Shown: positions 8,876 through 39,376, numbered from the stretch's first letter. The stretch is 64,000 nucleotides of DNA from Candidatus Aminicenantales bacterium (GCA_049512315.1 JBEKXF010000002.1:132706-196705); one strand, 5' to 3'. Notes: generated by a model from the sequence alone, not told the origin. Program-made: numbers and translations.

Positions 8876-8888
8876 CGGACATCCTCCG

Positions 8889-9530: not shown

Positions 9531-9532
9531 GG

Positions 9533-20700: not shown

Positions 20701-21526
20701 TCACAAAGCCGTACGAGGATGTCCGTGAAATGGGATCGGAGGCGCCCTGGATTTCTCGGCCGGAGACTGGGACATTCTCTCCAAGGCGGAAAGCTATCGG
20801 AACCGCGATCCTCCTCCTCGCCTTCTCCTGATAGGCCGTCGGCGCTTCGTCTCGGAAACCGCCCAAGGGCGTATCGACCTGGAGCTGCCCTTCTCTGTTC
20901 AGGATGACGTCGGAGGCACCTCTATACGCCAACCGAATCACCGACGGATCGGCCCCCGGATGGACGATAAACTCGTGCTTGAGGCGCTCGGCCGTGCCGT
21001 AAAAAGCGAGGTCGATCCCCGGCCAGAGGTCCTTGTAGACGATCCGGGAATAAGTCGCGAGGCCCGGACGCCACTCGTCCGGCTTGCCCTTGAAATAGGA
21101 TACGATGGCTTCGGCTTTCCCTTCGCCGGCCGGGCAGACGCCCGGATCCGCTCCGACGAAGTCGAGCTTCACGGTCCAGCGGGTGCTTTCCCCGCGACCG
21201 TCGAGAGTCGACTCGCCCTTTTCTTTGTTGCTCTCGTGGGCTTTCTTCCGAGCATCAGACTGAGTCAGGGCGATCGTTATCCCGGAGGGACCAAAGTAGA
21301 TAGTTTTGTCCGCTCCGGCGACATAATAATCCACTCGAGGGTCGAGCTGACCCCGGTTCGATATGAAATACAGGGGCATCCGGCCGAAATTCGGGTCGAT
21401 CCGCGGGCCGGATACCGTGGGGTCACCAACCCGCTTCCCCTCGGGCCCGGGCCGCCCGGCCGCCGCCGGGTCCAAGGATACGCCGAGAATAAGAATACCC
21501 AGAACCGCTTTAAGGGCTGTTTGCAT
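17732..21526 (-). CDS. Giant secreted protein: N-terminal DUF, about 7 SBBP beta-propeller repeats, 3 fibronectin type III domains, ASH/choice-of-anchor-D-like domain, unknown C-terminus
   Basis: Start revised to ATG 21526 (MQTALKAVLGILILGVSLDPAAAG… signal). Repeated units Y[CS]G[FY]IGG…GIAVD.SGNAYV.G.T.S.DFP…DAFVAKV (SBBP, PF06739-like). Three units …WTD.S.NE.GF.IERK… (FN3). Then …IAFGTVNECATLDRTTIFFNDGGAPLTITAVTF… 1264 aa. Confidence 0.85.
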   Translation of the reverse strand: MQTALKAVLGILILGVSLDPAAAGRPGPEGKRVGDPTVSGPRIDPNFGRMPLYFISNRGQLDPRVDYYVAGADKTIYFGPSGITIALTQSDARKKAHESNKEKGESTLDGRGESTRWTVKLDFVGADPGVCPAGEGKAEAIVSYFKGKPDEWRPGLATYSRIVYKDLWPGIDLAFYGTAERLKHEFIVHPGADPSVIRLAYRGASDVILNREGQLQVDTPLGGFRDEAPTAYQEKARRRIAVPIAFRLGENVPVSGREIQGASDPISRTSSYGFVIGDYDHSLPLVLDPATVIYCGFIGGALDDRATGVAIDSSGNAYVVGWTGSFDFPVAVGPDLGFNSAIQGTDAFVAKVNPAGTGLVYCGYIGGSWDDVATGIAVDGSGNAYVSGWTYSMDFPALVGPGLTPHANISQYSEAFVAKVNASGTGLAYSGFIGGSLGDQAAGIAVDGSGNAYVTGSTESDDFPTTVGPGLTFNGATDAFVVKVAASGTGLVYSGYIGGLGSDYGKGIAVDSSGNAYVTGYTNSYPTEHFPVKVGPSLTYSYGDDAFVAKVNAAGTGLVYCGYIGGTGDDHGAAIAVDPSGNAYVTGDTNSLSQFPVMGGPDLVYNGGQDAFVAKVNATGTSLLYCGYIGGTGDDIGTAISVDQSGNAYVAGQTMSGTGFPVIGGPSLVNAGMADAFLATVDPSGSRLIYCGYLGGSQNDGAGGIAADGTGNVYATGYTRSNDFPVIVGPSLAPSGGSLMISDDAFIARIFEKLPPAAPTDVHATAVTSSEIDLAWTDASANEDGFKIERKTGAGGTWSQIGTVGANITTYKNGGLVEGTTYFYRVRAYNDIGDSAYSNEAGVAILTRPAGPTNLTATAVNERRVNLAWADNSSAESGFRIERKTNAAATWTAIGTVAANVTAYADTQVVEDTTYTYRILAFNSGGDSAPSNEASVTTPDLTIPTAPSGLQATALSATQARLAWIDNSYNEAGFKVERKTGAGGAWAQVGTAAADATSWTDTGLAETTTYYFRVLAYDNAGDSGYSNEAPVTTPAYQPLLRLPIPDIAFGTVNECATLDRTTIFFNDGGAPLTITAVTFASGSADFAYRGPATPFTVPPLGSQTVTVRFGPTATGALSAVFAVQSNDPGAAGATFGVSGTGFIPSITLALQVQRLVERAWIIRREYGKIDLTVTKSVPFNVTTYRLSRKTGTGAYVALKDFTEADLPAGRLTYLDMFLAGDASYSYKVDALDCGGRVIATSSEAGAVSPAARPVTRPERKIVKR
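18409..19261 (-). repeat. Three tandem fibronectin type III domain-coding repeats inside the giant gene
   Basis: Three 95-aa units with the pattern P.AP..L.ATA.S…L.W.D.S.NE.GF.IERK….W..IGT…N.T.Y.D..L…TTY.YRV.A.N..GDS..SNEA.V.T. Confidence 0.65.
19273..20647 (-). repeat. Tandem in-frame coding repeats (about 7 units of about 190-200 bp) encoding SBBP beta-propeller blades
   Basis: Protein-level period of 62-68 aa with a conserved YCGYIGG / SGNAYVTG / DAFVAKVN core implies DNA-level tandem near-repeats. The antisense track ORFs here are repeat artifacts. Confidence 0.7.
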
Positions 21527-21644
21527 AGCTCGTTCCCCTCTGGTCGTTCGACCCATTGTCGACTCTAAGGCTTCTCGAAGAATAGGCCAAGGATAGCACT
21601 GACCGCCGAAGAGAGTCAACCGGAGGGCGAGCCCGACGCCGGAA

Positions 21645-25098: not shown

Positions 25099-25228
25099 GG
25101 CTCTCTTGACTATCAGGAAGGAGTAACGAACGACATCTCCATATTAGAACAAATCGCCCCGCATTTCAAAAAAATCCGTTCGGAAACTCTTGAATTGCGG
25201 GCGGAGATGGCTATATTAAGGGTTGACC

Positions 25229-26704
25229 ATGGCGCCCTCATATTTCCTGGCGTTCGACCTCGGCGCGGAAAGCGGCCGGGCCGTCCTCGGCTATCTCGAG
25301 GCGGGACGCCTGTCAGTCAGGGAGATCAGGCGGTTCCCGAACACGCCCCTCCGGCTGGCCGGACATCTCCACTGGAACATCTTCGGCCTTCTAGAGGAAA
25401 TGAAGATCGCCATGAGGGCCTGCGCCTCAGAGGTCCCCGCGGGGTTGGCGGGCGTAGGCGTCGACACCTGGGGCGTGGATTTCGGCCTCCTGGCCCGGGA
25501 CGGGAGCGTCCTGGGCCTGCCGTTCTGCTACCGCGATACGAGGACGTTGGGGGCCATGGAAGAATACTTCAAGCTCGTCCCCCGCGCCGCCCTCTACGAA
25601 GCCACCGGCATCCAGTTCATGCCCTTCAACACGCTCTTCCAGCTCTACGCGATGGTCCGGGACCGGTCTCCCCTACTCGACGCGGCCTCAGACCTTCTCT
25701 TCATGCCGGACCTCTTCAACTATCTTCTCACCGGCCGGAAGGCCTCCGAATTCACCATGGCCACCACCTCACAGATCTTCAACCCCAGGACCCGGAGCTG
25801 GAACCCGGGGCTCTTCCAGGCGATGGGGCTCTCCAAAAAAATCCTCCAGGACGTCCTCGAGCCCGGCACCGTCCTCGGCCCTCTTCTCTCCGATGTCGCC
25901 GAAGAAACGGGGCTCCCAGGTGTTCCCGTCATCGCCACGGCCAGCCACGACACCGGTGCGGCCGTTGCCGCCGTCCCGGCCAGCGGAAAGAACTGGGCCT
26001 ACATCAGCTCGGGGACGTGGTCGCTTGTCGGCGTCGAGGAGAGAGCCCCGATCATTACGAAAGAGGCCCTCGACCGGAACTTCACCAACGAAGGCGGGGT
26101 GGCCGGGACGATCCGCTTCCTGAAAAACGTCACGGGCCTGTGGCTCGTCCAGCAGTGCCGGAGAGCCTGGGAAGGGACCCGGGCCTTGACCTACGACGAG
26201 CTGACGCGGGCGGCCGGCGAAGCAGCCCCGTTCGGGGCCCTCATCGACCCGGACGATCCCGGGTTCCTCAACCCGCCGGACATGCCGGAGGCCATCCGCG
26301 CCTATTGCCAGAAAACCGGCCAGACCCCCCCGGCCTCGGAAGCCTCCTTCATCCGCTCCATCCTCGAGAGCCTGGCTCTCAAGTATCGCCTGGTCGTCGA
26401 CCAAATCGAGCAGGTCACCGGCCACCCGGTCGAGAGGATCCATGTCATCGGCGGGGGCTCGCAGAACCGCCTGCTCTGCCAGTTCGCTGCGGACGCCACG
26501 GGTCGGCCGGTCATCGCCGGCCCGGCCGAAGCGACGGCCATCGGGAACATTCTCGTCCAGGCCATGGCCCTGAGATCCGTCAGCTCCCACGAAGAGATGC
26601 GGACGATCGTCAAAGATTCCTTCGAGCCTGCGGGCTACGAGCCCCACGGGGACAAGGGCTGGCTCGAGGCCTTCGACCGCTTCCAAGCTGTCCTCGGCGC
26701 TTGA
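25229..26704 (+). CDS. rhaB: Rhamnulokinase (FGGY carbohydrate kinase)
   Basis: FGGY N-terminal motif (FLAFDLGAESGRAV), the …GVDTWGVDFGLL… phosphate-1 region, and C-terminal …IHVIGGGSQNRLLCQFAADATGRPV… The track start at 25223 is TTG; ATG 25229 is more likely. Confidence 0.85.
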   Translation: MAPSYFLAFDLGAESGRAVLGYLEAGRLSVREIRRFPNTPLRLAGHLHWNIFGLLEEMKIAMRACASEVPAGLAGVGVDTWGVDFGLLARDGSVLGLPFCYRDTRTLGAMEEYFKLVPRAALYEATGIQFMPFNTLFQLYAMVRDRSPLLDAASDLLFMPDLFNYLLTGRKASEFTMATTSQIFNPRTRSWNPGLFQAMGLSKKILQDVLEPGTVLGPLLSDVAEETGLPGVPVIATASHDTGAAVAAVPASGKNWAYISSGTWSLVGVEERAPIITKEALDRNFTNEGGVAGTIRFLKNVTGLWLVQQCRRAWEGTRALTYDELTRAAGEAAPFGALIDPDDPGFLNPPDMPEAIRAYCQKTGQTPPASEASFIRSILESLALKYRLVVDQIEQVTGHPVERIHVIGGGSQNRLLCQFAADATGRPVIAGPAEATAIGNILVQAMALRSVSSHEEMRTIVKDSFEPAGYEPHGDKGWLEAFDRFQAVLGA

Positions 26705-26759
26705 CAGGCCCGGGCGCCCGTACTATAAGAATGCTCGTCTTGACTGAGGAGGGTTGTCC

Positions 26760-28025
26760 ATGGATCCAACAGCCGTAGAAAAGGCCTATGCCCTGAGCCG
26801 GGAAAAATACGCCGACCTCGGCGTCGACACCGACAAGGCGATCTCCAGCCTCCAATCGGTTCCCCTCTCCATCCATTGCTGGCAGGGAGACGACGTCGGC
26901 GGCTTCGAAACGTCGGCCGCCGGGCTCAACGGCAGCGGGCTTCATGTCACGGGCAGCTATCCCGGCAAGGCCCGCAACGTCCAGGAGCTCCGCTCGGACC
27001 TCCACCAGGCCTTCGCCCTCATCCCCGGACGCCACCGGCTCAACCTTCATGCCATGTACGGAGAGTTCGGCGGGAAGCCCGTCGACCGCAATGAGATCGA
27101 GCCGGGGCACTTCCGCGGCTGGGTGGAATGGGCCAAGCAGGAAGGCTTAAAGCTCGACTTCAACGCCACATGCTTCGCCCACCCGAAGGCCGCGGCCGGC
27201 TTCACTCTCAGCAGCAAAGACCCCGGCATCCGCCGATTCTGGATCGACCACGTCCGGCTTTGCCGGAAGATCGCCGCGTATCTGGGCCGCGAGCTCCAGG
27301 CATCCTCCACCCACAACCTTTGGATCCCCGACGGGAGCAAGGACGTCCCCGTCGACCGCTGGACCTACCGTTCCCTCCTCAAGAACTCGCTGGATGAGAT
27401 CTTCGAAACGGAGTACAGCCCGCTCCAGATGAAGGATTCCCTGGAGAGCAAGCTCTTCGGCATCGGCAGCGAATCGTTCGTCGTGGGCTCGCACGAGTTT
27501 TATCTGGGATACGCCTTCACCAAGGGCAAACTCGTCTGCCTCGACCTGGGACACTTCCACCCGACCGAGTCCGTGGCGGACAAGATCTCGGCCGTCCTCC
27601 AGTTCTCCGACGAGATCCTTCTCCACGTGAGCCGGGGGGTCCGATGGGACAGCGACCATGTCGTCCTCCTCAACGACGAGATCCGGGCCCTGGCCGAGGA
27701 GATCGTCCGCGGCCAGGCGCTCGACAGGACGCACATCGCCCTCGATTATTTCGACGCAAGCATGAACCGCATCGGGGCCTGGGTCCTCGGCGCCCGGGCC
27801 ACCCTGAGGGGCCTTCTCATCGCCCTCCTCGAACCCCGGGAGACACTCCAGGAGCTGGACGGCGAAGGGCGGGTCCTCGCCCGCCTGGCCGCGCTCGAGG
27901 AGCTCAAGTCTATGCCGTTCGGTCCCGTTTGGGATTACTTTTGCCTCAAGAACGGCGTCCCCCCCGCCGACTTCTGGCTCCGGGAGGTCGAAGCCTACGA
28001 GAAAAAGGTCCTGAGCAAGAGATAG
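26760..28025 (+). CDS. rhaA: L-rhamnose isomerase
   Basis: Strong similarity to the RhaA family (…LSIHCWQGDDVGGFE…, …HLNLHAMY…, …DLGHFHPTE…). ATG 26760 is preferred over the track's TTG at 26754. Confidence 0.9.
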   Translation: MDPTAVEKAYALSREKYADLGVDTDKAISSLQSVPLSIHCWQGDDVGGFETSAAGLNGSGLHVTGSYPGKARNVQELRSDLHQAFALIPGRHRLNLHAMYGEFGGKPVDRNEIEPGHFRGWVEWAKQEGLKLDFNATCFAHPKAAAGFTLSSKDPGIRRFWIDHVRLCRKIAAYLGRELQASSTHNLWIPDGSKDVPVDRWTYRSLLKNSLDEIFETEYSPLQMKDSLESKLFGIGSESFVVGSHEFYLGYAFTKGKLVCLDLGHFHPTESVADKISAVLQFSDEILLHVSRGVRWDSDHVVLLNDEIRALAEEIVRGQALDRTHIALDYFDASMNRIGAWVLGARATLRGLLIALLEPRETLQELDGEGRVLARLAALEELKSMPFGPVWDYFCLKNGVPPADFWLREVEAYEKKVLSKR

Positions 28026-28070: not shown

Positions 28071-28098
28071 TTGACGAAAGCTCAAAAACAGCTACACT
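28071..28098 (+). promoter_or_regulatory. Sigma70-like promoter for the HEAT / HD-GYP operon
   Basis: TTGACG (28071-76), 16-nt spacer, TACACT (28093-98). A perfect 7-bp inverted repeat CCGGAGC-cgc-GCTCCGG follows in the 5'UTR (28111-28127). Confidence 0.45.
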
Positions 28099-28139: not shown

Positions 28140-29996
28140 ATGGACCAGAAGAATAGCCCGGTGACAGTGGCCGCAGCCGGAGGCCAGAGCCTCGATCCCA
28201 AGGCCGTCGACAAAACCCGCGACATCCTCCACCAGCTGTCCAACACCGTCTCGGCCATGAAGATCTTCCCCTCCGAGCACGCCACGCTCAAGAACTTCGT
28301 CGACGATCTGACCCAGAAGATCCAGAGCTATCTCGAAGCCTACGGGAAGCTCGAGATCTGGGTGTCGGAATATTCATTCCTCTGCGGAGGCCGGACGGTC
28401 TTCACCGACGAAATGACGATCAAGAGCCTGCCCTTCTTTTTTTTCAAGGACGGGATGCAGGCCCTCTATTTTTACCAGGGCCTCGACCGGGACGAGGTCC
28501 TCGATTTCCTGGATCTCATCCGGAAAGAGTCCCAGAAACCGGCCAGCGACGGCGATATCGTCACAGCCCTCTGGGAGCGGGATTTCGCCAACATCCAATA
28601 TTACGCGCCCGACGATTTCCTGGAGAACCGGATCGTCCAGGAACGGGCGGAGTCCCAGGCCGCGTCCGGTCCCGGCGCCATGCCCGAGTTCGCCCAAGAG
28701 GTCATCGAGATCAAGGTCGACACCTCGAAGTTCACGACCGGGAAGATCGAGCTTACGCCGGAGGACAGCGACGATGTCCGGCGGAGGTCGGCGATCAAGG
28801 AGCTCGCGGACGAGGAAGCGCCGCGGGCCGCGCTCGAGGAGGCCCCGGCCGAAGGAACCGGGGAGGTCCATAGGAGCCCCGCTGCGGCCATGGATCCGAC
28901 CCTGACGGAAGGCGAGATCCAGAACCTTGAATCCCTAGTGCGGGCCAACCGGACGATCTCCCCCGACGAAGAATTTCTGGACCTTATGGTCGAGATCCTC
29001 AACCTCGAAAAGGACCTCGATCATTTCAGCGCCAGCCTCGAGACCCTGGTGGATTATCACCACGAGCAGCTCCAACAGGGCGACTTCGGCTTTTCCATCC
29101 CGCTCGTCCACAAGGTCCGCGAACTCAGGGATTACCTATCGCAGACAGATCCGGAAAAGTCTGCCAGGCTTGACGCTTTCCTGAAAAAGATCATCAGCGC
29201 TAAGACGGTGGACGCCATCAAGGTCCTCTTCGAAAAGAAAAGGCCGGTGGACTGGAATGCCCTGGTCGATTTCTTCAAGCTCCTGGGACAGCCCGCCGTA
29301 CCCCTGGCCGCGGACCTCTACGAATCCGTCCCGGATGAAGAATCCAGGGCGAAAATCCTGGACTTCATCAAGACAGTCTACAGCCAGGATCCGGGAGGGC
29401 TGGCCAGTCTGGTTGCCGATGAGCGGCCCCTGCTCTCCAAGGGCATCGTCGGGCTCCTGGCCCGGTCCTTCGGCAAAAAGGGGCTCGCTCATTTCACGGT
29501 CTTCCTGGGTTTGAAGGACAAGGACGTCAAGCTCGAGGCCATCCGGGCTTTGGGCCAGGCCAGGGACGAAATGGCCAACCGGATGCTGCTCAGCTTCCTG
29601 AACGACGAGGATGAGGACCTGCGGATCCAGGCCGCCATGAAGCTCAATCCCGTCGAAGAGACGTCAAAAATCCAGCATCTCATCGAGGAAGCGGGCACGC
29701 GGGCGTTCAAGGGCAAGAGCCTGAAGGAAAAACAGGCGATCCTGTCGTTCATCGGCCGGACTCGGACCGAAGAGGCCCTGACCTTCCTCCGCAGGACCCT
29801 CGAGAAAAGGGCCCTCTGGATGCCGACCAGGACGAAAGAGATGAAGCTGGCCGCGGTCTCGGGCCTGGAGAGCATGGGGACGGAAGAGGCCATCCGGGCG
29901 CTCGAAAAAGGGGCGGGGTCCCGGAACCGGGAAGTCCGCGAGGCCTGCTCCCAAGCCCTGGTCAGGCTGGCCCAAATGAAAGTCGGCGGGGCGTGA
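28140..29996 (+). CDS. HEAT/PBS-lyase repeat protein with an N-terminal domain shared with the downstream HD-GYP protein
   Basis: 618 aa. The C-terminal third has HEAT-like repeats (…EDLRIQAAMKL…, …EEAIRALEK…REVREACSQALVRL). The N-terminal about 110 aa aligns with the N-terminus of the next ORF. Confidence 0.65.
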   Translation: MDQKNSPVTVAAAGGQSLDPKAVDKTRDILHQLSNTVSAMKIFPSEHATLKNFVDDLTQKIQSYLEAYGKLEIWVSEYSFLCGGRTVFTDEMTIKSLPFFFFKDGMQALYFYQGLDRDEVLDFLDLIRKESQKPASDGDIVTALWERDFANIQYYAPDDFLENRIVQERAESQAASGPGAMPEFAQEVIEIKVDTSKFTTGKIELTPEDSDDVRRRSAIKELADEEAPRAALEEAPAEGTGEVHRSPAAAMDPTLTEGEIQNLESLVRANRTISPDEEFLDLMVEILNLEKDLDHFSASLETLVDYHHEQLQQGDFGFSIPLVHKVRELRDYLSQTDPEKSARLDAFLKKIISAKTVDAIKVLFEKKRPVDWNALVDFFKLLGQPAVPLAADLYESVPDEESRAKILDFIKTVYSQDPGGLASLVADERPLLSKGIVGLLARSFGKKGLAHFTVFLGLKDKDVKLEAIRALGQARDEMANRMLLSFLNDEDEDLRIQAAMKLNPVEETSKIQHLIEEAGTRAFKGKSLKEKQAILSFIGRTRTEEALTFLRRTLEKRALWMPTRTKEMKLAAVSGLESMGTEEAIRALEKGAGSRNREVREACSQALVRLAQMKVGGA

Positions 29997-30005
29997 GGCA
30001 CGAGC

Positions 30006-31481
30006 ATGGGCGAAGCTGAAGGCAAGACTCCCGTGCGGAACGGCCGCGGCTCCCAAGTGAGGCCCGATTTCAAGACCTTCCAGAAGTCCGCCGTCGACCT
30101 CCTCATTCGGTTCCACATCGTCGTCAAGAACGCCAAGCTCTATCAGGCCAACAACGAGATGTTCCAGGAGCAGGCGAAGGCGCTCTTCGGGAGTCTCGAG
30201 GCCTTCCTGAAGGAGGAGGGCGAAGCCACGTTCCAGGTCCGGCAGAGCGCCCTGTTCTTCAACGGCGTCCGGCTCAAGTTCGCCCTGGGGACCTACCCCA
30301 TCTTCAAGTTCATTCTGGAGGCATTCCGGGTTCGGGAGATCGGCACGCTCGCCTTCTCGCCGGGGCTGACCGCGGAGGAGCTGGCCCGTTTTATTTCGGT
30401 CTTCGGGAAGCCGGGGAAAAGGGAGGGTCCCGCCTGCCAGAAGCTTCTGGCCGACCTCGCCGACGCGGACGTCCGCCACGTCAGCCTGGAAACGGCTTCG
30501 GCCACGGAAACCTTCACCAGTCTTCACAAGGACACGGCCCGGATCTTCTTCCTGAGCATCCTCCACCTCAAGGAGAGCTTCGAGCGCGACCAGCGGAACG
30601 AGCCGGTCCAGATCAACACCACGCGGCGCCTCATGCAGTCCATCTTCAACCACATCGTGGACAACGAGTCGTTCATCTACGGCCTGACCAACCTCAAGAA
30701 TTACGACGAGTACACGCTGAACCACTCCGTCAACGTCTGCATGCTGGCCCTCGCCCTCGGGCGGCGCCTCGGCCTGAGCCGGAGCGAGCTCGTCGACCTC
30801 GGCATCGCCGCGTTCTTTCACGACCTCGGGAAGCTCGATACCCCTGCCGACATCCTCAATAAGCCGGCCAAGCTCAGCGAGGAGGAGCGTGAGATCATGG
30901 AACGCCACCCCCACCAGGGCGCTGAGAAGCTCATCCACCTCAAGGAATTCCGTCGCCTGCCGCTCCGGGCCGTCCACGTCGCCCTCGAACACCACATCAA
31001 GGAAGACCTGTCCGGCTATCCCCATTATTTCAAGAAGGTCGACATCAACCTCTTCAGCAAGATCGTCAAGGTCGTGGACTATTTTGACGCCATCACGACC
31101 AAGCGGGTGTACCGAAAAAAGGTCTTCACCCGGGGGGAAGCTCTGAGCCTGATGCTCGAGTACAGCGGGACCGAGTTCAACGCCGTCATCCTCAAGGCCT
31201 TCGTTAACCTGATGGGCGTGTTTCCGATCGGGAGCCTGGTGGCCCTGAACACGGGCGAGGTCGGGATCGTCGTCGACGTCAATCCCGACCCACGGTTCAT
31301 GCTCAGGCCCCAGGTCAAGCTGATCGCGGACACCGCGAGGAACAAGGTCGACGGCGAGGTCGTGGACCTTTCGGATAAGAACCCGGAAACACGGAAGTTC
31401 CCGAGGACCATCGTCAAGGCCCTGGACCCCAGCACCTACGAAATCGAGGTCGCCGACTACTTCCTGGCCCAGGCCCAGTGA
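30006..31481 (+). CDS. HD-GYP domain c-di-GMP phosphodiesterase with N-terminal sensor-like domain
   Basis: HD motif (AAFFHDLGK, …RHPHQGAEKL…) and a GYP motif variant (LEHHIKEDLSGYPHYF). Starts 10 nt after the HEAT gene. Confidence 0.85.
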   Translation: MGEAEGKTPVRNGRGSQVRPDFKTFQKSAVDLLIRFHIVVKNAKLYQANNEMFQEQAKALFGSLEAFLKEEGEATFQVRQSALFFNGVRLKFALGTYPIFKFILEAFRVREIGTLAFSPGLTAEELARFISVFGKPGKREGPACQKLLADLADADVRHVSLETASATETFTSLHKDTARIFFLSILHLKESFERDQRNEPVQINTTRRLMQSIFNHIVDNESFIYGLTNLKNYDEYTLNHSVNVCMLALALGRRLGLSRSELVDLGIAAFFHDLGKLDTPADILNKPAKLSEEEREIMERHPHQGAEKLIHLKEFRRLPLRAVHVALEHHIKEDLSGYPHYFKKVDINLFSKIVKVVDYFDAITTKRVYRKKVFTRGEALSLMLEYSGTEFNAVILKAFVNLMGVFPIGSLVALNTGEVGIVVDVNPDPRFMLRPQVKLIADTARNKVDGEVVDLSDKNPETRKFPRTIVKALDPSTYEIEVADYFLAQAQ

Positions 31482-31582
31482 CGCCGTCCGGCCTCGCTTG
31501 CCACCCCGGGGCGATTCCTTTATCATGAACGCAAGATGCGCTGGGCCGAAGCCATCCCCCTTGTCCGGCAAGGAGATCTGAC

Positions 31583-34285
31583 ATGACGCCATTGCCTCCC
31601 GTCAACCTGAAGTGCGAGTCCCTCGCCGGGCCCCTCGGCGTGGACACGCCCAAGCCGAGGTTCTCCTGGCTCCACGTGAGTCCGGAACGTGACGTGAGGC
31701 AGACCGGTTTTTCCATTCTCGTCTCTTCGGCCCCGGAGCTTTGCCGTAAGGAAATCGGCGATTTCTGGGAGAGCGGACCGCTCGAGGGCGAAAGCTCCTT
31801 CAATGTCGAGTACCAGGGCGATCCGCTCCTGAGCTGTACGCGATACTACTGGCGGGTTCGCTGGCGGGACAAGAGCGGCGTCGAGAGTCCGTGGAGCGAA
31901 ATCGCCTCGTTCGTCAGCGGGTTCCTGTACGAGGGCGATTGGAAGGCCCGCTGGATCAGCGCCAGGAATATCCGGGAATTCAAGTCCCGGGGGAACGTCG
32001 TCCTCGGCGAGGCCGGTCCTGAACATGCCCAGGCCTTCGGCATCTACCTCCGGAAGGAATTCGATCTCCGGGAGAAGCCGGTCATGGCCCTGGCCTTCGT
32101 CTCCGGCCTCGGGCATGGCGAGCTCCGGATCAACGGACGGAAGGCCGGGGACAACGTTCTCGACCCTGGCTGGACGGATTACCGGAAAAAGGCTCTTTAT
32201 TCGACTTTCGACGTGACCGGGCTTCTTCAGGAAAAGAACGCCGCGGGGATCGTCCTCGGGAACGGTCGCCACATCAAGTACTTCGGCTACGACGGGCCCC
32301 GGCTGACGTGCCGCATCGAGATCGAAAGCGAGAGCGGCGAGCGAACGGTCGTCCTGTCGGATGAAACGTGGAAGACATCCCACGGCCCCCTCCAGGAGAA
32401 CGGCCTCTATTTCGGCGAAAAATACGACGCCCGCCTCGAAATGCCGGGGTGGGACGAACCGGGCTTCAACGACTCAGGCTGGGAAAAGGCCGTCTTTGTC
32501 CCCGGCACCCCATTGGCCTCCCAACTCATGCCCCCCGTCCGTGTCTGCGGAAAACTCCGGCCGGAGAACGTCTATGCGTCCGCCCCAGGAGTCTGGATCT
32601 TCGATTTCGGCCAGAACTTCTCCGGATGGGTCCGGATGCAGGTCCAGGGCCCCGCGGGGATGGAGGTCCGCCTAAGGCACGCCGAGCTCGTCCACGAGGA
32701 CGGCTCCTTGAACATGGGCCCCACGGAAAACGCAGAGGCCACGGATGTCTACATCTTGAAGGGCGGAGGCCTCGAAACCTACGAGCCCCGTTTCACCTAT
32801 CACGGCTTCCGTTATGTCGAGCTCACCGGCTTTCCCGGTGAACCGTCTTCCGAAACGCTGGAGGGGCGCTTCGTCCATTCGGACGTCGAGACGGCCGGGA
32901 CCTTTTCCTGCTCGAACGAGCTCGTCAACCGGATCCACACCAACGTCCTTTGGGGACAGCTCTCGAACCTCATGAGCATCCCGACCGACTGCCCGCAGAG
33001 GGACGAGCGGCACGGCTGGCTCGGCGACGCCCATCTCTCGGCCGAGGAGGCTGTTTTCAATTTCGACATGTCTGGGTTCTACGCCAAGTTCCTCGAAGAC
33101 ATCAGGCTGGCCCAGAAGGAGGACGGCAGCCTGCCCGACGTGGCTCCGCCCTACCTGCCGAGCCTCTATCCGGCCGACCCGGCCTGGAGCGCGGCCTACG
33201 CGACACTCGCGTGGCTGCATTACGAGCATTACGAAGACGTCAAGGTCCTGGCCCGCCACTACCCCAATCTCAGGAAATACGTCGAATACCTCGGCAAGAA
33301 CGCCAGCGGGCACATCATCAAGAGCCTCGGCAAGTACGGCGACTGGTGCCCCCCGGGCAGCGTCGTGCCCAAGAAGACCCCGGTGGAGCTCACATCGACG
33401 TGGTATTACTACCATGATGTCCTGATCCTCTCCAAGATCGCCCGGGTCCTCTGCCGCGGCGACGAGGCCAAGGAATACAGCAGCCTCGCCGAAAACATCA
33501 GGGACGCTTTCAACGCGGTCTTCCTCGGCGAGGACCAATACGCGGCGATCCGCGTCAGCCGCATCGACAATTATCCGAATCAAACTTCCAATGTCCTGCC
33601 TCTCTATCTGGACATGGTCCCGCCCGCAAAAATAAGCAAGGTCCTAGAGAGCCTTCTGCGCGGCGTCGTCCGTCAGCAGGATGGCCACGTCGACACGGGC
33701 ATCCTGGGCACGCGTTATATCCTGGACGTCCTGACCCGGAACGGCCAGGCGGAAACGGCCTACCGGATGGCCACCCAAAAAAGCTACCCGGGCTGGGGCT
33801 ACATGATCGAGGAAGGCGCCACGACCCTCTGGGAGAGATGGGAAAAATTGACCGGCCCGGGCATGAACTCCCAGAACCACATCATGCTGGGGAGCGTCGA
33901 CGCCTGGTTCTACAGGACGATCGCCGGGCTGACCCTGCTTGAGCCGAGCTGGAAGAAGTTCCAGGTCAAGCCCCATATCCTCGCCGACCTGACGTCCGCC
34001 GAAGCGAGCCTGAAGACCGTCCGCGGTCCCATCCGAGCGGCCTGGAGGAAGGATGATTCGTCCTTCAGCCTCGAGGTCCTCGTCCCCGTTGGGGCGACGG
34101 CCAGAGTCCATATGCCGGAGCTCTATTCGGACGGCAAGGTCACGGAATCAGGAAAGGTCATCTGGACGAGTTCCCGATCCGGCGAAGCGGTTCCCGGGAT
34201 CACCGCGGCCGGGAGGGGGGACAGGCACGCCGTGTTCGAGGTCGGGAGCGGCGCCTACCGGTTCGAGCTGAAGAAAGCGGGCTGA
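31583..34285 (+). CDS. Alpha-L-rhamnosidase, glycoside hydrolase family 78
   Basis: AAGGAG RBS. N-terminal (MTPLPPVNLKCESLAGPLGVDTPKPRFSW) and catalytic (6-hairpin) motifs typical of GH78 (…CPQRDERHGWLGDAH…, …GWGYMIEEGATTLWERW…). 900 aa. Confidence 0.9.
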   Translation: MTPLPPVNLKCESLAGPLGVDTPKPRFSWLHVSPERDVRQTGFSILVSSAPELCRKEIGDFWESGPLEGESSFNVEYQGDPLLSCTRYYWRVRWRDKSGVESPWSEIASFVSGFLYEGDWKARWISARNIREFKSRGNVVLGEAGPEHAQAFGIYLRKEFDLREKPVMALAFVSGLGHGELRINGRKAGDNVLDPGWTDYRKKALYSTFDVTGLLQEKNAAGIVLGNGRHIKYFGYDGPRLTCRIEIESESGERTVVLSDETWKTSHGPLQENGLYFGEKYDARLEMPGWDEPGFNDSGWEKAVFVPGTPLASQLMPPVRVCGKLRPENVYASAPGVWIFDFGQNFSGWVRMQVQGPAGMEVRLRHAELVHEDGSLNMGPTENAEATDVYILKGGGLETYEPRFTYHGFRYVELTGFPGEPSSETLEGRFVHSDVETAGTFSCSNELVNRIHTNVLWGQLSNLMSIPTDCPQRDERHGWLGDAHLSAEEAVFNFDMSGFYAKFLEDIRLAQKEDGSLPDVAPPYLPSLYPADPAWSAAYATLAWLHYEHYEDVKVLARHYPNLRKYVEYLGKNASGHIIKSLGKYGDWCPPGSVVPKKTPVELTSTWYYYHDVLILSKIARVLCRGDEAKEYSSLAENIRDAFNAVFLGEDQYAAIRVSRIDNYPNQTSNVLPLYLDMVPPAKISKVLESLLRGVVRQQDGHVDTGILGTRYILDVLTRNGQAETAYRMATQKSYPGWGYMIEEGATTLWERWEKLTGPGMNSQNHIMLGSVDAWFYRTIAGLTLLEPSWKKFQVKPHILADLTSAEASLKTVRGPIRAAWRKDDSSFSLEVLVPVGATARVHMPELYSDGKVTESGKVIWTSSRSGEAVPGITAAGRGDRHAVFEVGSGAYRFELKKAG

Positions 34286-35933: not shown

Positions 35934-37229
35934 ATGCCGATCTTCAAGCTTCGGAAGAAAAAGCGCGTCTGTGTCATCGGCCTCGACGGCGTTCCGCACG
36001 GCATGATCCTCGACTTGGCCGAGAAGGGCGTCATGCCGGCCATGGCCCGGCTGGTCGACGCGGGGCATCTCCACAAAATGAAGGCCAGCCTGCCCGAGAT
36101 CTCGGCGGTCTCCTGGACCGATTTCATGACGGGCCGGGACTCCGGGACCCACGGCATCTTCGGGTTCACGGATTTCAAGCCGGATTCCTACGGGGTCCGT
36201 TACCCCAACTTCCAGGACCTGCGGACCCCGACCATCTGGGACACGCTCGGAGACAAGGGGAAAAAAAGCATCGTCATCAATCAGCCCTCCACGTACCCGG
36301 CGCGGCCCATCAACGGCGTCCTCATCTCCGGCTTCGTGGCCATCGAGCTGGCCAAGGCCGTCTACCCTCCCTCCATCCGGGCCGCTCTCGAGAGGATGGG
36401 TTACGAGGTCGACATCGACATCCTGAGATCGCGCGAGGACCCCGAGGTTCTCATGAGGGAGCTGGCGAGGACCCTGGCCGGCCAGGAGAAGGCCCTGGAT
36501 CTCTTCTGGGGAGAGCCCTGGGACCTCTTCGAGTTCGTCATCACCGGCACCGACAGACTTCACCACTTTCTCTGGACGGCCTACGAAGACAAATCGCATC
36601 CCTTCCACGGGCGCTTCCTGGATTATTATCGCGAGGCCGACAGGCTGATCGGAAAGATCGTCGCATCATTCCGTAAGGCCACGGGGAGCGAGGCCGGCCT
36701 GTTCCTTCTCTCCGACCACGGTTTCACGGGCATCGTTCAGGAGGTTTGCCTCAATGCCTGGCTCGAGCAGAACGGCTACCTGGCGTTCAAGGGGCCCGGA
36801 CCGAAAGGGCTGGAGGACATCACGGCCCCGAGCCGGGCCTTCGCCCTGGACCCCAACCGGATCTACCTGAACCTCAAGGGAAAGTTTCCGGCGGGCAACG
36901 TCGACCCCGGCGAAAGGGAGTCCTTCCGCGCGGAGATCGCCCGCAAGCTCGAAAAGCTCGAGTTCGAAGGCCGGAGGGTCGTCCGGAAAGTCTTTTTGTC
37001 CGAGGAGATCTATTCCGGCCCGCAGGCCGAGAAGGGGCCCGACCTCGTCGTCCTCGGCGAGCCGGGGTACGACATGAAGGGGTCGGTCAAGAAGAAGGAA
37101 GTTTTCAGCCGTTCTGACCTCCAGGGCATGCACACCTGGGACGACGCGTTTTTCTGGGCGGCCGCAGACCATGGCCCGGACCTGGCCATCAAAGATATCG
37201 CCAAGACGATCCTCGGAAGCTACGCATGA
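35934..37229 (+). CDS. Alkaline-phosphatase-superfamily type I phosphodiesterase / nucleotide pyrophosphatase family protein (cytoplasmic paralog)
   Basis: Motifs VCVIGLDGVP, …EISAVSWTDFMTG…, …LLSDHGF…; no signal peptide. Its stop overlaps the next start (ATGA). Confidence 0.8.
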   Translation: MPIFKLRKKKRVCVIGLDGVPHGMILDLAEKGVMPAMARLVDAGHLHKMKASLPEISAVSWTDFMTGRDSGTHGIFGFTDFKPDSYGVRYPNFQDLRTPTIWDTLGDKGKKSIVINQPSTYPARPINGVLISGFVAIELAKAVYPPSIRAALERMGYEVDIDILRSREDPEVLMRELARTLAGQEKALDLFWGEPWDLFEFVITGTDRLHHFLWTAYEDKSHPFHGRFLDYYREADRLIGKIVASFRKATGSEAGLFLLSDHGFTGIVQEVCLNAWLEQNGYLAFKGPGPKGLEDITAPSRAFALDPNRIYLNLKGKFPAGNVDPGERESFRAEIARKLEKLEFEGRRVVRKVFLSEEIYSGPQAEKGPDLVVLGEPGYDMKGSVKKKEVFSRSDLQGMHTWDDAFFWAAADHGPDLAIKDIAKTILGSYA

Positions 37230-39376
37230 GAAACGGGCGGCGAACGGCGGGACCCCTCATCGGCCTCATCGCCGTCTTCGCCCTCTCCCTTTCGGCCCCG
37301 CTCGAAGCTTACGTCGGGCCCGGCGCGGGTTTCGCTTTCCTCTCCTCTTTCTTCGTCCTCTTCCTGACTTTTTTCATGGCCGTGTTTTCGTTCCTGGCCT
37401 GGCCCTTCCGCTTCCTGTGGCGCGTCGTGCGCGGTCAGAGGGCTTATAAAGACAGCAAGATCAACAGGATGGTCATCCTCGGGCTGGACGGCATGGAGCC
37501 CACCCTGGCTGAAAAATTCATGGCCGAAGGGAAGCTCCCGAACCTGGCCCGGCTCAAGAAGGACGGGACCTACGCCCGGCTGAGGACGACGACGCCGGCC
37601 ATCTCGCCCGTGGCCTGGTCGTCGTTCATGACCGGGTCCGAGCCCTCCAAGCACAACATCTTCGACTTCCTGAGCCGCGACCCTCGGACCTACCTGCCCG
37701 ACCTTTCTTCGGCCCGGGTCGGCAAGCCCCGGCGCGTTCTCTCCCTCGGGAAATACAACATCCCGCTCGCCAAGCCCGAGATCCGCGGGCTCAGGAAAAG
37801 CGTCCCGTTCTGGAAGATCCTGGGCGACAAGGGCATTTTCAGCACCGTTCTCAGGGTCCCGATCACCTTCCCGCCGGAAAAGTTCAGGGGCCACCTTCTC
37901 TCCGGGATGTGCACTCCCGATATGAAGGGCAGCCAGGGGACGTTCTCGTTCTACACCACGGACGGGGAAAAGGTCCGGAAACACGAGGGCGGGGTCGCGA
38001 TCCCCGTCGAGATCGAGGGGAACAGGATCCGGACGCATCTTTCCGGTCCGGAAAACACGATGCTCAAGACTCCCACGGAGATCCGTCTGCCGCTGACCCT
38101 GACTCTCGACAGGGCCAAAGGCGGGGCCTGGATCGAAGTCGCCGGCGAAGAAAAATTCTTTCTCAAGGAAAAAACGTTCAGCCCCTGGGTCCCGGCCGTC
38201 TTCCGGCCCGGATTGGGGATCAAGGTCCGGTCCATCTGCCGGTTCTTCATCTCCGGGCTCGAGCCGCACTTCGAGATGTACGTGACGCCCCTCAACATCG
38301 ACCCCGAGAAGCCGGCCCTGCCGATCTCGCATCCCTTCATCTACTCGATTTATCTGGCCAGGCTCCTGGGACGCTTCATCACCCTGGGCGAGGCCAACGA
38401 CACCTGGGCCCTGAACGAGGGAATCCTCGGCGAGCAGCCCTTCCTCGACCTCACCTACTCCAACCACGCCGAGTGGGAAGCCATGCTCTCGAACGCCCTC
38501 GAAAAGACGCCCCGTGGGCTCGTGACCATCGTCTTCGAGACGACCGACAGCATCCAGCACATGTTCTTCCGCTATCTCGACAAGAGCCACCCGGCCCTCA
38601 AGAAGCCCGGCCAGAACGGGCTCGGCGCCCGGGTCATCGAGGACCTCTATGTCAGGATGGACGACCTCGTCGGGCGCGTCCGGAAATCCCTGGACGAGCG
38701 GAGCGTGCTCGTCATCATGTCAGACCACGGCTTCAAGTCCTTCCGGCGCGGGGTCAACCTCAACTCCTGGCTCCTCAAGAACGGCTACCTGCGTCTCAAG
38801 GACGGGAAGGCGGAGAGCGGCGAGTGGTTCAGGGACGTCGATTGGGAGAAAACTAGGGCCTATGCTCTCGGGCTCGGCGGGCTCTACCTCAACGTCCGCG
38901 GGCGGGAAGCCAAAGGGACCGTCGGCCCGGGCGGAGAAGCGAAGCGCCTCAAGGCCGAGCTCCTCCAGAAGCTCAAGGGCCTGAAAGACACGGCGACGGG
39001 GGCCATCGCCATCACGAATGTTTATGACACGGACGCGGTTTATTCGGGACCCTACAAGGACAACGCCCCGGACCTCATCATCGGCTACAACGAAGGCTTC
39101 CGGGCTTCGTGGGAAGGCGTCACGGGCATCGTCAACGACACGATCTTCGACGACAACGACAAGGCCTGGAGCGGTGACCACTGCATCGACCCGGCCCTCG
39201 TCCCCGGCGTCCTCTTCTCAAACCTCAAGCTCAAGGGCCAGAATCCGTCGATCATGGACATCGCCCCGACGGCCCTCGAGCTCTTCGGGCTCCGGCCGCC
39301 GGCCCACATGGACGGCCGCAGCTTGGTCGACGCCGCGAACCCGTTCGGAACGTCCGCAGGGGAAAAACCATCATGA
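37226..39376 (+). CDS. Alkaline-phosphatase-superfamily type I phosphodiesterase family protein (membrane-anchored paralog)
   Basis: Two N-terminal hydrophobic helices, then MVILGLDGMEP, …PAISPVAWSSFMTG…, …IMSDHGF…, …WSGDHC…; 716 aa. Overlaps both neighbours by 4 nt. Confidence 0.8.
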   Translation: MRNGRRTAGPLIGLIAVFALSLSAPLEAYVGPGAGFAFLSSFFVLFLTFFMAVFSFLAWPFRFLWRVVRGQRAYKDSKINRMVILGLDGMEPTLAEKFMAEGKLPNLARLKKDGTYARLRTTTPAISPVAWSSFMTGSEPSKHNIFDFLSRDPRTYLPDLSSARVGKPRRVLSLGKYNIPLAKPEIRGLRKSVPFWKILGDKGIFSTVLRVPITFPPEKFRGHLLSGMCTPDMKGSQGTFSFYTTDGEKVRKHEGGVAIPVEIEGNRIRTHLSGPENTMLKTPTEIRLPLTLTLDRAKGGAWIEVAGEEKFFLKEKTFSPWVPAVFRPGLGIKVRSICRFFISGLEPHFEMYVTPLNIDPEKPALPISHPFIYSIYLARLLGRFITLGEANDTWALNEGILGEQPFLDLTYSNHAEWEAMLSNALEKTPRGLVTIVFETTDSIQHMFFRYLDKSHPALKKPGQNGLGARVIEDLYVRMDDLVGRVRKSLDERSVLVIMSDHGFKSFRRGVNLNSWLLKNGYLRLKDGKAESGEWFRDVDWEKTRAYALGLGGLYLNVRGREAKGTVGPGGEAKRLKAELLQKLKGLKDTATGAIAITNVYDTDAVYSGPYKDNAPDLIIGYNEGFRASWEGVTGIVNDTIFDDNDKAWSGDHCIDPALVPGVLFSNLKLKGQNPSIMDIAPTALELFGLRPPAHMDGRSLVDAANPFGTSAGEKPS

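What the first reader, a model, noticed from the sequence alone, without database searches (positions are those of the whole stretch)
28140..31481. HEAT-repeat protein and HD-GYP phosphodiesterase share a homologous N-terminal domain and sit inside a rhamnose catabolic cluster
The first about 110 residues of the two adjacent proteins align (for example …MKIFPSEHATLKNFV…YLEAYGKLEIWV…FFFFKDGMQALYFYQGLDRDEVLDFLDLI against …LIRFHIVVKNAKLYQANNEMF…FLKEEGEATFQV…LFFNGVRLKFALGTYPIFKFILEAF). The shared module is therefore fused once to HEAT repeats and once to an HD-GYP catalytic domain. The 10-nt spacing indicates co-transcription from a recognisable promoter (TTGACG-16-TACACT). The pair splits rhaB-rhaA from the GH78 alpha-L-rhamnosidase. 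This suggests second-messenger turnover linked to rhamnose or plant-polysaccharide sensing, or a common sensor/dimerisation domain in which the HEAT protein acts as a catalytically silent partner or decoy.
Basis: partly seen in the sequence, partly recalled or inferred. Interest (0 to 1): 0.55.

Follow-up and report, generated by a model that had tools for sequence, protein, structure and literature searches.

The report
HEAT protein paired with HD-GYP enzyme
Two adjacent genes, a HEAT-repeat protein and an HD-GYP signalling phosphodiesterase, share a previously undescribed N-terminal domain and form a two-gene cassette that stays together across at least four bacterial phyla, which suggests a two-subunit enzyme; its position among rhamnose genes is specific to one lineage.

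Summary
ORF A (28140-29996, 618 aa, HEAT repeats) and ORF B (30006-31481, 491 aa, HD-GYP) share a homologous N-terminal domain of about 140 residues. BLASTP misses it. Profile-profile comparison with diverse homologs gives 98.3% probability and P = 2e-14, against control scores of 23 or less. HMMs from one family hit the other, and independent AlphaFold models give the same order of helices and strands. The domain matches no Pfam, NCBIfam or PDB entry and is absent from the published census of HD-GYP architectures.

The pair is a fixed cassette. A is followed by B, with a gap of -14 to +40 nt, in about 70 Aminicenantes genomes and in 9 of 9 distant contexts (Nitrospirota, Thermodesulfobacteriota, Latescibacterota and unassigned metagenome contigs). 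A search starting from B found A directly upstream in 27 of 27 loci with enough sequence. The A family has 2,457 clusters at 50% identity. B keeps every HD-GYP catalytic residue in all lineages.

The rhamnose link is specific to Aminicenantes and not obligatory. Some genomes have lost or degraded the rha and GH78 genes but keep A-B, and outside this class the flanking genes are unrelated. A-B has its own conserved promoter.

Most likely mechanism (inferred, not shown): A is a non-catalytic scaffold or regulator that pairs with B through the shared domain.

The parts
28071..28098 (+). Promoter-like element upstream of A: -35 TTGACG (28071-28076), 16-nt spacer, -10 TACACT (28093-28098)
   Evidence: Found by consensus scan, 9 of 12 matches. 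Both hexamers and their spacing are nearly invariant in otherwise divergent rhaA-A intergenic regions of orthologous loci. A strict pattern matches 41 of 69 loci, including L072, which has no rha genes.
28140..29996 (+). Gene A: 618-aa protein made of the shared N-domain, a variable acidic linker and a HEAT-type alpha-solenoid; no catalytic domain detected
   Evidence: ORF. HEAT_2 3e-14. Family of 2,457 clusters at 50% identity; the top 150 hits are mostly 550-630 aa, and the 10 diverse members scanned all have N-domain plus HEAT_2.
28185..28598 (+). Shared N-terminal domain in A (residues 16-153; the modelled fold extends to about residue 174)
   Evidence: hhalign against the B N-domain: 98.3% probability, P = 2.3e-14. 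AlphaFold pLDDT about 90 over residues 21-160. Best-conserved part of A (S96, L97, D104, G105, F111, E119, F123, D139, W145). No Pfam or PDB match.
28620..28889 (+). Variable, acidic, gap-rich linker of A (residues about 161-250)
   Evidence: Low conservation and a high gap fraction in the family alignment; pLDDT below 50 from residue 176.
28890..29993 (+). Alpha-solenoid of A (residues about 251-618); Pfam HEAT_2 at 459-612
   Evidence: HEAT_2, HEAT and HEAT_PBS hits. Closest PDB sequences are alphaRep / PBS-type HEAT repeat proteins, E down to 9e-18. Part of the middle region (about residues 334-443) resembles the HEAT region weakly (hhalign P = 4e-5).
29995..30005 (+). A-B junction: the A stop codon TGA (29994-29996) overlaps an SD-like GAGG (29995-29998); 9-nt gap before the B start codon
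   Evidence: Read from the sequence. The gap is -14 to +11 nt in about 70 orthologous loci and -8 to +40 nt in distant phyla.
30006..31481 (+). Gene B: 491-aa protein made of the shared N-domain, an HD-GYP catalytic domain and a conserved C-terminal beta-domain
   Evidence: ORF. HD_5 4e-24, HD 1e-15. PDB matches PmGH 4mcw 1e-23, V-cGAP3 5z7c and Bd1817 3tm8, over the HD-GYP domain only.
30060..30485 (+). Shared N-terminal domain in B (residues 19-160)
   Evidence: hhalign. AlphaFold pLDDT about 80-88, with the same element order as in A. No Pfam hit even at E <= 10.
30663..31205 (+). HD-GYP catalytic domain of B (residues about 220-400), with H240, H272-D273, K276, K286, H301, H329-H330, G337-Y338-P339, D358, D361 and R367
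   Evidence: Alignment to PmGH. These residues are invariant or nearly so in 41 B sequences from Aminicenantes and distant lineages.
31215..31466 (+). C-terminal beta-rich domain of B (residues about 404-487); no family assigned
   Evidence: Beta strands in the model, pLDDT 66-81. Present in all 23 distant partners, with 26-38 of 81 positions identical. No Pfam hit.
25223..28025 (+). rhaB (25223-26704, FGGY kinase) and rhaA (26754-28025, L-rhamnose isomerase): upstream neighbours, a separate transcription unit
   Evidence: Pfam RhaA 2e-182, FGGY_N and FGGY_C. Present upstream of A in 36-37 of 43 full-flank loci, lost or decayed in others.
31498..34285 (+). GH78 alpha-L-rhamnosidase (31583-34285), preceded in this window by a promoter-like TTGCCA-17-TATCAT (31498-31526)
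   Evidence: Five rhamnosidase Pfam domains. Promoter scan, 10 of 12 matches. In more than half of 45 loci the B-GH78 gap is only 5-40 nt. GH78 is present in 32 of 43 full-flank loci.

Best explanation
A and B form a conserved two-gene cassette that most likely encodes a two-subunit cyclic-dinucleotide (probably c-di-GMP) phosphodiesterase.

B is the catalytic subunit. It has the shared N-domain, an intact HD-GYP domain and a small C-terminal beta-domain. A is a non-catalytic partner. It has a paralogous copy of the same N-domain, a flexible acidic linker and a HEAT-type alpha-solenoid of the kind that acts as a protein-binding scaffold.

The proposed mechanism is that the two proteins are made together from one transcript, with coupled translation, and associate through their homologous N-domains as a pseudo-homodimer. 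A's solenoid would then regulate B's activity or tether it to another target, giving local control of the second messenger.

In Aminicenantes the cassette lies between rhaBA and GH78 and has its own promoter. In many species that promoter probably also drives GH78. This placement is specific to the lineage and is not needed for the cassette to function.

Shown: the domain homology, the obligate adjacency in both directions across at least four phyla, the tight coupling, the conserved catalytic residues of B, the absence of any detectable catalytic domain in A, and the conserved promoter. Inferred: the physical A-B complex, the role of the N-domain as the interface, the substrate, and a regulatory or scaffolding role for A.
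For: N-domain homology: hhalign 98.3% probability, P = 2.3e-14, with clean controls; cross-family HMM hits; identical order of secondary-structure elements in independent AlphaFold models.

Obligate pairing: A is followed by B in essentially all of about 70 Aminicenantes loci that are long enough, with gaps of -14 to +11 nt. The same holds in 9 of 9 distant contexts, with overlapping or abutting genes and unrelated flanks. In a search that started from B, 27 of 27 loci with room upstream have A directly upstream. No unpaired copy of either domain occurs in 1.57 Mb of held sequence, apart from cases at contig ends or with frameshifts. One genome duplicated the pair as a unit, A-B-A-B in L028.

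B is an active-type HD-GYP: all metal-binding and substrate-binding residues and the GYP motif are invariant in every lineage. A's C-terminus is a PBS/alphaRep-type HEAT scaffold, and no enzymatic domain was found in A.

From established knowledge: HD-GYP enzymes act as dimers, and N-terminal domains are thought to promote dimerisation or sensing (Galperin & Chou census, 10.1101/2021.11.05.467447, read). Conserved gene order with translational coupling is a classic indicator of physically interacting products.
Against: No direct evidence of an A-B interaction was obtained.

The N-domains could be parallel sensor domains that never touch. They have diverged strongly, to about 14% identity, and each family has its own invariant motifs (SLPFFFFKDG in A; NGVRLKF / TYPIFK in Aminicenantes B). 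That could mean different functions rather than a shared interface.

The substrate is not established. The HD-GYP fold also hydrolyses 3'3'-cGAMP (V-cGAP3 is the second-best PDB hit). The acidic residue that marks trinuclear enzymes is displaced by one position relative to PmGH: B has DEYTLNH where PmGH has DPETQNH.

The AlphaFold model of B's catalytic domain has low confidence, pLDDT 40-60.
Confidence: 0.5

Rival explanations
1. Parallel sensors. The shared N-domain binds the same small-molecule or protein signal independently in A and in B. A is a separate effector that relays the signal through its HEAT solenoid, and it does not form a complex with B through the N-domains.
For: N-terminal domains of HD-GYP proteins are generally regarded as sensor domains (census read). 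A few polar positions are shared by both families: the K-[IL]-[YFH]-x-x-x-[HN] turn between helices 1 and 2, and the G-L-x-x-x-E-[LI]-x-x-F motif. The domain occurs in tandem in one A protein, L090_A, as sensor modules often do.
Against: Strict 1:1 adjacency, fixed gene order and translational coupling across phyla are more typical of subunits than of independent effectors. The domain was not seen fused to any other output domain in the sampled set: the top 150 hits and the 10 diverse members scanned all have the N-domain plus HEAT architecture. Most of the shared conserved positions are hydrophobic core residues rather than an obvious ligand pocket.
Confidence: 0.22
2. Rhamnose-coupled signalling. 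The cassette is functionally part of the rhamnose or rhamnoside utilisation system. It would be induced with it, or would sense rhamnose or plant polysaccharide, and so link sugar availability to second-messenger turnover.
For: The order rhaB-rhaA-A-B-GH78 is found in 30 of 43 Aminicenantes loci with full flanks, even where A has diverged to 33-40% identity. GH78 starts only 5-40 nt after B in more than half of 45 loci, which implies co-transcription from the A promoter. No classical regulator is encoded nearby.
Against: The whole region of about 20 kb is syntenic in this class. The RNase H-like gene (42 of 43) and the first PF01663 gene (39 of 43) are retained more often than rhaA (37 of 43) or GH78 (32 of 43). 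A-B persists where the rha genes are absent or decayed: L072, L054, L069, L075, L015, L024, L038, L041. A-B has its own conserved promoter separate from rhaBA. In other phyla the cassette has unrelated neighbours and no rhamnose genes. No riboswitch or other known RNA element was found in the cluster.
Confidence: 0.15
3. The N-terminal resemblance is a chance or compositional similarity between two alpha/beta regions, and the adjacency is only inherited synteny.
For: Full-length BLASTP finds nothing. Pairwise identity is only about 14-19%.
Against: P = 2.3e-14, with reversed, shuffled and wrong-domain controls at background. Reciprocal HMM hits across families. Matching predicted topology. Adjacency is conserved across at least four phyla with different flanking genes.
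Confidence: 0.02

Closest known systems
PmGH (Persephonella marina HD-GYP c-di-GMP phosphodiesterase, PDB 4MCW; GAF-HD-GYP family)
   Same: Best solved match to B's catalytic domain (E = 1e-23, B residues 220-400). B has the same HD, HH, GYP, lysine and aspartate residues. The overall layout is also the same: an N-terminal accessory domain followed by a C-terminal HD-GYP domain.
   Different: PmGH's N-terminal domain is GAF-like, according to the census read. B's N-domain gives no GAF hit and no significant structural match. PmGH has no dedicated partner gene that shares its N-domain. B has an extra C-terminal beta-domain. The acidic residue for a third metal is shifted by one position in B.
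Bd1817 / DUF3391-HD-GYP family (PDB 3TM8; PA4108, VC2497)
   Same: A cytoplasmic N-terminal domain of 120-140 residues and unknown function, joined to HD-GYP through a long helix. It has been suggested to promote dimerisation.
   Different: DUF3391 consists of four beta-strands followed by two long helices. The domain here is alpha-alpha-beta-beta-beta-alpha-beta-alpha-alpha-beta-alpha. No PF11871 hit appears even at E <= 10, and 3TM8 is not among the Foldseek hits. No HEAT partner is known for that family.
RpfG (REC-HD-GYP) and its protein-interaction network in Xanthomonas
   Same: An HD-GYP enzyme whose output depends on protein-protein interactions as well as on catalysis (my own knowledge, and the general statement in the census read).
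   Different: RpfG is controlled by phosphorylation of a receiver domain. Its partners (GGDEF and PilZ proteins) are not encoded as a fixed adjacent gene and do not share a domain with it.
PBS-lyase-type HEAT repeat proteins / alphaRep scaffolds (NblB, CpcE-like)
   Same: A's C-terminal repeats belong to this repeat class (HEAT_2 3e-14; alphaRep E down to 9e-18; weak NblB and CpcE hits). These are protein-binding solenoids.
   Different: The scores are far below the equivalog cut-offs (29 bits against 300 for NblB). None of those proteins carries the N-domain or pairs with an HD-GYP gene.

Membership tests
HD-GYP class II cyclic-di-GMP phosphodiesterase (protein B) | HD-superfamily domain that matches the HD_5/HD models above the curated cut-off | tested here: met
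   PF13487 85.8 bits (cut-off 27.2) and PF01966 58.5 bits (cut-off 22).
HD-GYP class II cyclic-di-GMP phosphodiesterase (protein B) | Conserved metal ligands (H...HD...H...HH...D) and the GYP motif | tested here: met
   H240, H272-D273, H301, H329-H330, D361 and G337-Y338-P339 align with the PmGH residues and are invariant in 41 sequences from several lineages.
HD-GYP class II cyclic-di-GMP phosphodiesterase (protein B) | Conserved lysine involved in c-di-GMP binding (Lys235 of 4MCW) | tested here: met
   K286, in the motif LNKP, aligns with LLKP of 4MCW and is conserved in 40 of 41 sequences. The role of this lysine is taken from the census.
HD-GYP class II cyclic-di-GMP phosphodiesterase (protein B) | [quoted passage not shown] | tested here: inconclusive
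   B has D234-E235-Y236, with E235 one position before the residue that aligns with PmGH E185. D/E is conserved, but the register is uncertain.
HD-GYP class II cyclic-di-GMP phosphodiesterase (protein B) | Hydrolysis of c-di-GMP (or cGAMP) in vitro | not testable with these tools
   Needs an enzyme assay.
HEAT-repeat (PBS-lyase type) protein (protein A, C-terminal part) | Tandem HEAT-like repeats above the Pfam cut-off | tested here: met
   PF13646 HEAT_2 53.4 bits (cut-off 27.7), two stretches. Internal repeats detected by self-hhalign, 92% probability. alphaRep PDB matches.
DUF3391-HD-GYP (Bd1817 family) | N-terminal DUF3391 domain (PF11871; four beta-strands then two helices) | tested here: not met
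   No PF11871 hit at E <= 10 for the window proteins, or at E <= 1 for ten diverse N-domains. The predicted topology differs (against the description read). 3TM8 is absent from the Foldseek and profile hits.
GAF-HD-GYP (PmGH family) and DUF3369-HD-GYP | N-terminal GAF or GAF-like domain | tested here: not met
   No GAF or DUF3369 Pfam hit. The best GAF structure in Foldseek has E = 2.3 and TM 0.16.
RpfG family (REC-HD-GYP) | N-terminal receiver domain | tested here: not met
   No Response_reg hit in B.
Rhamnose regulon regulators (RhaS/RhaR AraC-type, or LacI/DeoR-type) | DNA-binding helix-turn-helix domain | tested here: not met
   Pfam and NCBIfam find no DNA-binding domain in A or B.
Known anti-phage defence systems | Match to a system-specific PADLOC model | tested here: not met
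   Only generic HEAT-ARM (30 bits) and marginal Cas3 HD-motif hits (E about 0.005).

The most novel reading that the evidence does not exclude
The A-B cassette is a widespread and so far unrecognised class of heteromeric HD-GYP phosphodiesterase. A HEAT-solenoid partner, which arose by ancient duplication of the enzyme's own N-terminal domain (a domain with no match in Pfam or the PDB), forms an obligate pseudo-homodimer with the catalytic subunit and gates or localises second-messenger hydrolysis. In Aminicenantes the complex is co-transcribed with a GH78 rhamnosidase, so that degradation of rhamnose-containing polymers is coupled to c-di-GMP levels.
Probability: 0.3. Interest if true: 0.72.

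Novelty: new variant of a known kind. Interest (0 to 1): 0.6.

Why it matters
HD-GYP enzymes are the less well understood of the two classes of c-di-GMP phosphodiesterase. The published census of their architectures states that most of them have unrecognised N-terminal regions whose signals are unknown.

This finding defines one such region as a distinct domain of about 140 residues. The domain has a confident predicted fold and no match in Pfam or the PDB. The same domain was duplicated into a dedicated HEAT-repeat partner that is always encoded immediately upstream.

That gives a concrete, testable model of a two-subunit HD-GYP enzyme with a non-catalytic scaffold, of the kind proposed for local c-di-GMP signalling. 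The A family has about 2,500 clusters at 50% identity, in Acidobacteriota (Aminicenantes), Nitrospirota, Thermodesulfobacteriota and Latescibacterota. These are mostly uncultured environmental lineages whose signalling is largely unknown.

The analysis also corrects the tempting inference from gene context that the pair is a rhamnose sensor.

Tried and rejected
1. Full-length BLASTP of A against B shows no N-terminal alignment. The similarity appears only with restricted local alignment and with profiles.

3. A riboswitch or other known RNA in the cluster: only one hit, below threshold and inside rhaA (BjrC68, E = 0.056). Treated as chance.

4. A conserved 5'-UTR hairpin between the -10 box and the A start codon: several loci show GC-rich stems, but the mean z-score against shuffles over 49 loci is about 0. 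Rejected.

5. A degenerate HD-GYP domain hidden in A's middle region: hhalign of A's C-terminal part or middle region against B's C-terminal part gives P = 0.26-0.55. Rejected. Part of the middle region looks weakly HEAT-like instead.

6. Known defence system: PADLOC gives only generic hits. Rejected.

7. The 5-gene rhamnose block as a unit under selection: rejected as the sole explanation, because the wider flanks are at least as well conserved and the rha genes are dispensable.

A narrower alignment worked.

9. Literature searches for an HD-GYP plus HEAT pairing, or for a non-catalytic HD-GYP partner, found nothing relevant.


Full report
WHAT IS THERE. The window comes from a GC-rich bacterium of the Aminicenantes lineage (Acidobacteriota); the nearest genome locus, L001, is 91-94% identical at protein level. 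At the stated coordinates there are two same-strand ORFs. A is 28140-29996, 618 aa. B is 30006-31481, 491 aa. Nine nucleotides separate them, and an SD-like GAGG overlaps A's stop codon. Pfam places HEAT_2 repeats at A residues 459-612 and an HD_5/HD domain at B residues 231-391. B carries the HD, HH and GYP motifs and matches the solved HD-GYP enzymes PmGH (4MCW, E = 1e-23), V-cGAP3 and Bd1817 over its catalytic domain only. Upstream are rhaB and rhaA (RhaA E = 2e-182). Downstream is a five-domain GH78 alpha-L-rhamnosidase. The descriptive part of the finding is therefore correct.

IS THE N-TERMINAL SIMILARITY REAL? Full-length BLASTP does not see it. Smith-Waterman restricted to the first 170 residues gives a colinear alignment, A27-133 against B30-139, with z of 3.3-4.2 against shuffles. 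That is suggestive but not decisive. Profile-profile comparison strengthened steadily as the profiles became more diverse:
- P = 0.0026 with shallow profiles.
- P = 4.5e-5 with about 60-70 orthologs of each protein taken from related genomes.
- P = 3.2e-12 after an exhaustive HMM search supplied diverse members of the A family.
- 98.3% probability, P = 2.3e-14, score 89, over 138 colinear columns (A16-153 against B19-160), once B partners from other phyla were added.

Reversed profiles, wrong-domain pairs and column- or block-shuffled profiles score 12-23. Two further lines of evidence agree. An HMM built only from Aminicenantes B N-termini hits the N-domains of distant A proteins colinearly (up to 37-40 bits), and the A HMM hits distant B N-termini (12-22 bits). 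AlphaFold models made from separate alignments give the same order of elements, H-H-E-E-E-H-E-H-H-E-H, with pLDDT about 90 for A and 80-88 for B in this region. The homology is real.

IS THE DOMAIN KNOWN? No Pfam or NCBIfam model matches it, in the window proteins or in ten diverse members, even at permissive thresholds. Profile searches of PDB sequences find nothing. Foldseek of the confident A model against the PDB gives no hit better than E = 0.4 and TM 0.27. The census of HD-GYP architectures by Galperin and Chou (10.1101/2021.11.05.467447) describes DUF3391 (four strands followed by two helices) and the GAF-like DUF3369. Neither fits this topology. The census does not mention HEAT partners, and it notes that most HD-GYP proteins have unrecognised N-terminal regions. 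The more sensitive structure libraries were unavailable, so a distant fold relationship remains possible.

THE PAIR IS A CONSERVED CASSETTE. A genome scan with the A N-domain returned 80 loci, almost all from Aminicenantes. In essentially every locus long enough to tell, A is followed by a B ortholog, with a gap of -14 to +11 nt and often a 4-nt overlap. One genome duplicated the pair as a unit, A-B-A-B in L028.

The exhaustive search found 2,457 A-family clusters at 50% identity (1,331 at E <= 1e-10). The top 150 are mostly 550-630 aa, and the ten diverse members I scanned all have the N-domain plus HEAT_2 architecture. Source names place members in Nitrospirota, Thermodesulfobacteriota and Latescibacterota as well.

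In nine of nine distant contexts, the A gene is followed directly by an HD_5 protein of 467-506 aa (gap -8 to +40 nt). The flanking genes differ each time: a GAF-PAS histidine kinase plus receiver protein, an ABC transporter, tRNA synthetases, pyrimidine and menaquinone biosynthesis, Fe-S cluster assembly, peptidases.

The reverse test started from a B N-domain alignment of a non-Aminicenantes lineage and scanned metagenome contigs. It gave 32 loci. All 27 with enough upstream sequence have an A gene directly upstream. No unpaired copy of either domain occurs in the 1.57 Mb held, apart from cases at contig ends or with frameshifts.

All B partners keep every HD-GYP catalytic and substrate-binding residue and a C-terminal beta-domain of about 80 residues. 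A consists of the N-domain (its best-conserved part), a variable acidic linker, and an alpha-solenoid whose C-terminal part is of the PBS/alphaRep HEAT type.

THE RHAMNOSE CONTEXT. Within Aminicenantes the order rhaB-rhaA-A-B-GH78 occurs in 30 of 43 loci with full 10-kb flanks. However, the whole region is syntenic: ZnADH(-), RNaseH-like(-), [rhaB rhaA], A, B, [GH78, aminotransferase(-)], then three PF01663 genes. The RNaseH-like gene (42 of 43) and the first PF01663 gene (39 of 43) are retained more often than rhaA (37 of 43), rhaB (36 of 43) or GH78 (32 of 43).

Several genomes have lost or degraded the rhamnose genes while keeping A-B intact. L072 has none. L054 lacks rhaBA. L069 and L075 keep only rhaB. 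L015, L024, L038 and L041 have a divergent or fragmented rhaA and no rhaB or GH78.

It is strikingly conserved, as TTGACG-N16/17-TA(A/C)ACT, in otherwise divergent rhaA-A spacers, including in a genome without rha genes. A-B therefore has its own promoter. Downstream, the B-GH78 gap is only 5-40 nt in more than half of 45 loci, so GH78 is probably co-transcribed with A-B in many species. In this window the gap is 101 nt and contains a separate promoter-like element. No riboswitch and no classical regulator is present.

Taken together, the cassette functions independently of rhamnose catabolism. A transcriptional association with GH78 inside Aminicenantes is plausible but unproven, and it is not general.

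MECHANISM. The following are shown: a catalytically intact HD-GYP enzyme; a partner without a detectable catalytic domain that carries a paralogous copy of the enzyme's N-domain plus a protein-binding solenoid; obligate adjacency in fixed order with translational coupling across phyla; and reciprocal distinctness of the A-type and B-type N-domains across phyla (A-HMM scores of 165-290 bits on distant A against 12-20 bits on B). That last point puts the duplication before the spread of the cassette.

The following are inferred: the two proteins form a complex through the homologous N-domains, as a pseudo-homodimer analogous to the dimerisation proposed for other HD-GYP N-domains, and A regulates or localises B. 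I put this at about 0.5.

The main rival is that the N-domains are parallel sensors with no contact (about 0.2). Rhamnose-coupled signalling is a lineage-specific add-on at best (about 0.15). Chance similarity is effectively excluded. The substrate (c-di-GMP or cGAMP) and the metal stoichiometry are not settled.

NOVELTY AND VERDICT. B is a new member of the HD-GYP family, and A's C-terminus is an ordinary HEAT solenoid. Three things are new: the shared N-domain, the obligate pairing of an HD-GYP enzyme with a partner derived from its own N-domain, and the breadth of this cassette. I found no description of it in the literature available here. I rate it a new variant of a known kind, with interest 0.6.

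Noticed in passing
window 35934-41394 (+): Three tandem genes of the type I phosphodiesterase / nucleotide pyrophosphatase family (PF01663); the third has a TAT signal. They are conserved downstream of A-B across Aminicenantes. In genomes lacking GH78 and the aminotransferase they follow B directly (L015, L024, L041, L069). They are absent next to the cassette in other phyla.
   Followed up: partly
L028:10001-16791: Tandem duplication of the whole cassette (A-B-A-B) between rhaA and GH78 in one Aminicenantes genome. The pair was duplicated as a unit.
   Followed up: partly
L090:8001-10091 (protein P0236, 696 aa): This A-family protein carries two tandem copies of the N-domain (residues 6-152 and 149-315) ahead of the HEAT repeats, and is still followed by an HD-GYP partner.
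   Followed up: partly
L015, L024, L038, L041 (about 8600-9850 in each): The rhaA homolog is highly divergent or fragmented (39-54% identity, split matches) and rhaB and GH78 are missing, while A-B is intact. This looks like decay of the rhamnose genes around a retained cassette. Some of these assemblies also show frameshifts in A that may be sequencing errors.
   Followed up: partly
window 28185-28598 and 30060-30485: At equivalent positions of the shared domain, the family-specific conserved residues differ in charge. A has D90, D104 and D139. B has R89 and K91 (R or K in 8 of 10 diverse B sequences). This might reflect electrostatic complementarity at an interface, but it was not tested.
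   Followed up: no
window 31215-31466: B ends in a conserved beta-rich domain of about 80 residues (consensus G..PIG.LV.L.T.E.G.V...N...RP.V..I.D) with no Pfam match. It is present in all B partners across phyla.
   Followed up: partly
window 17732-21619 (-): ORF of 1,295 aa with many repeats of the form SGNAYV-G-T, followed by three fibronectin-type-III-like modules; probably a large surface protein. Not examined.
   Followed up: no
window 29664-31592 (-) and many others: Long antisense or overlapping ORFs (for example 642 aa opposite A and B) with arginine-, glycine- and proline-rich translations. These are artefacts of the high GC content, not genes.
   Followed up: no
L081:2055-5539 and L082-L085: In one non-Aminicenantes lineage the cassette lies directly downstream of a GAF-GAF-PAS histidine kinase of about 1,029 aa and a single-domain receiver protein, so it sits next to two-component signalling genes.
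   Followed up: partly
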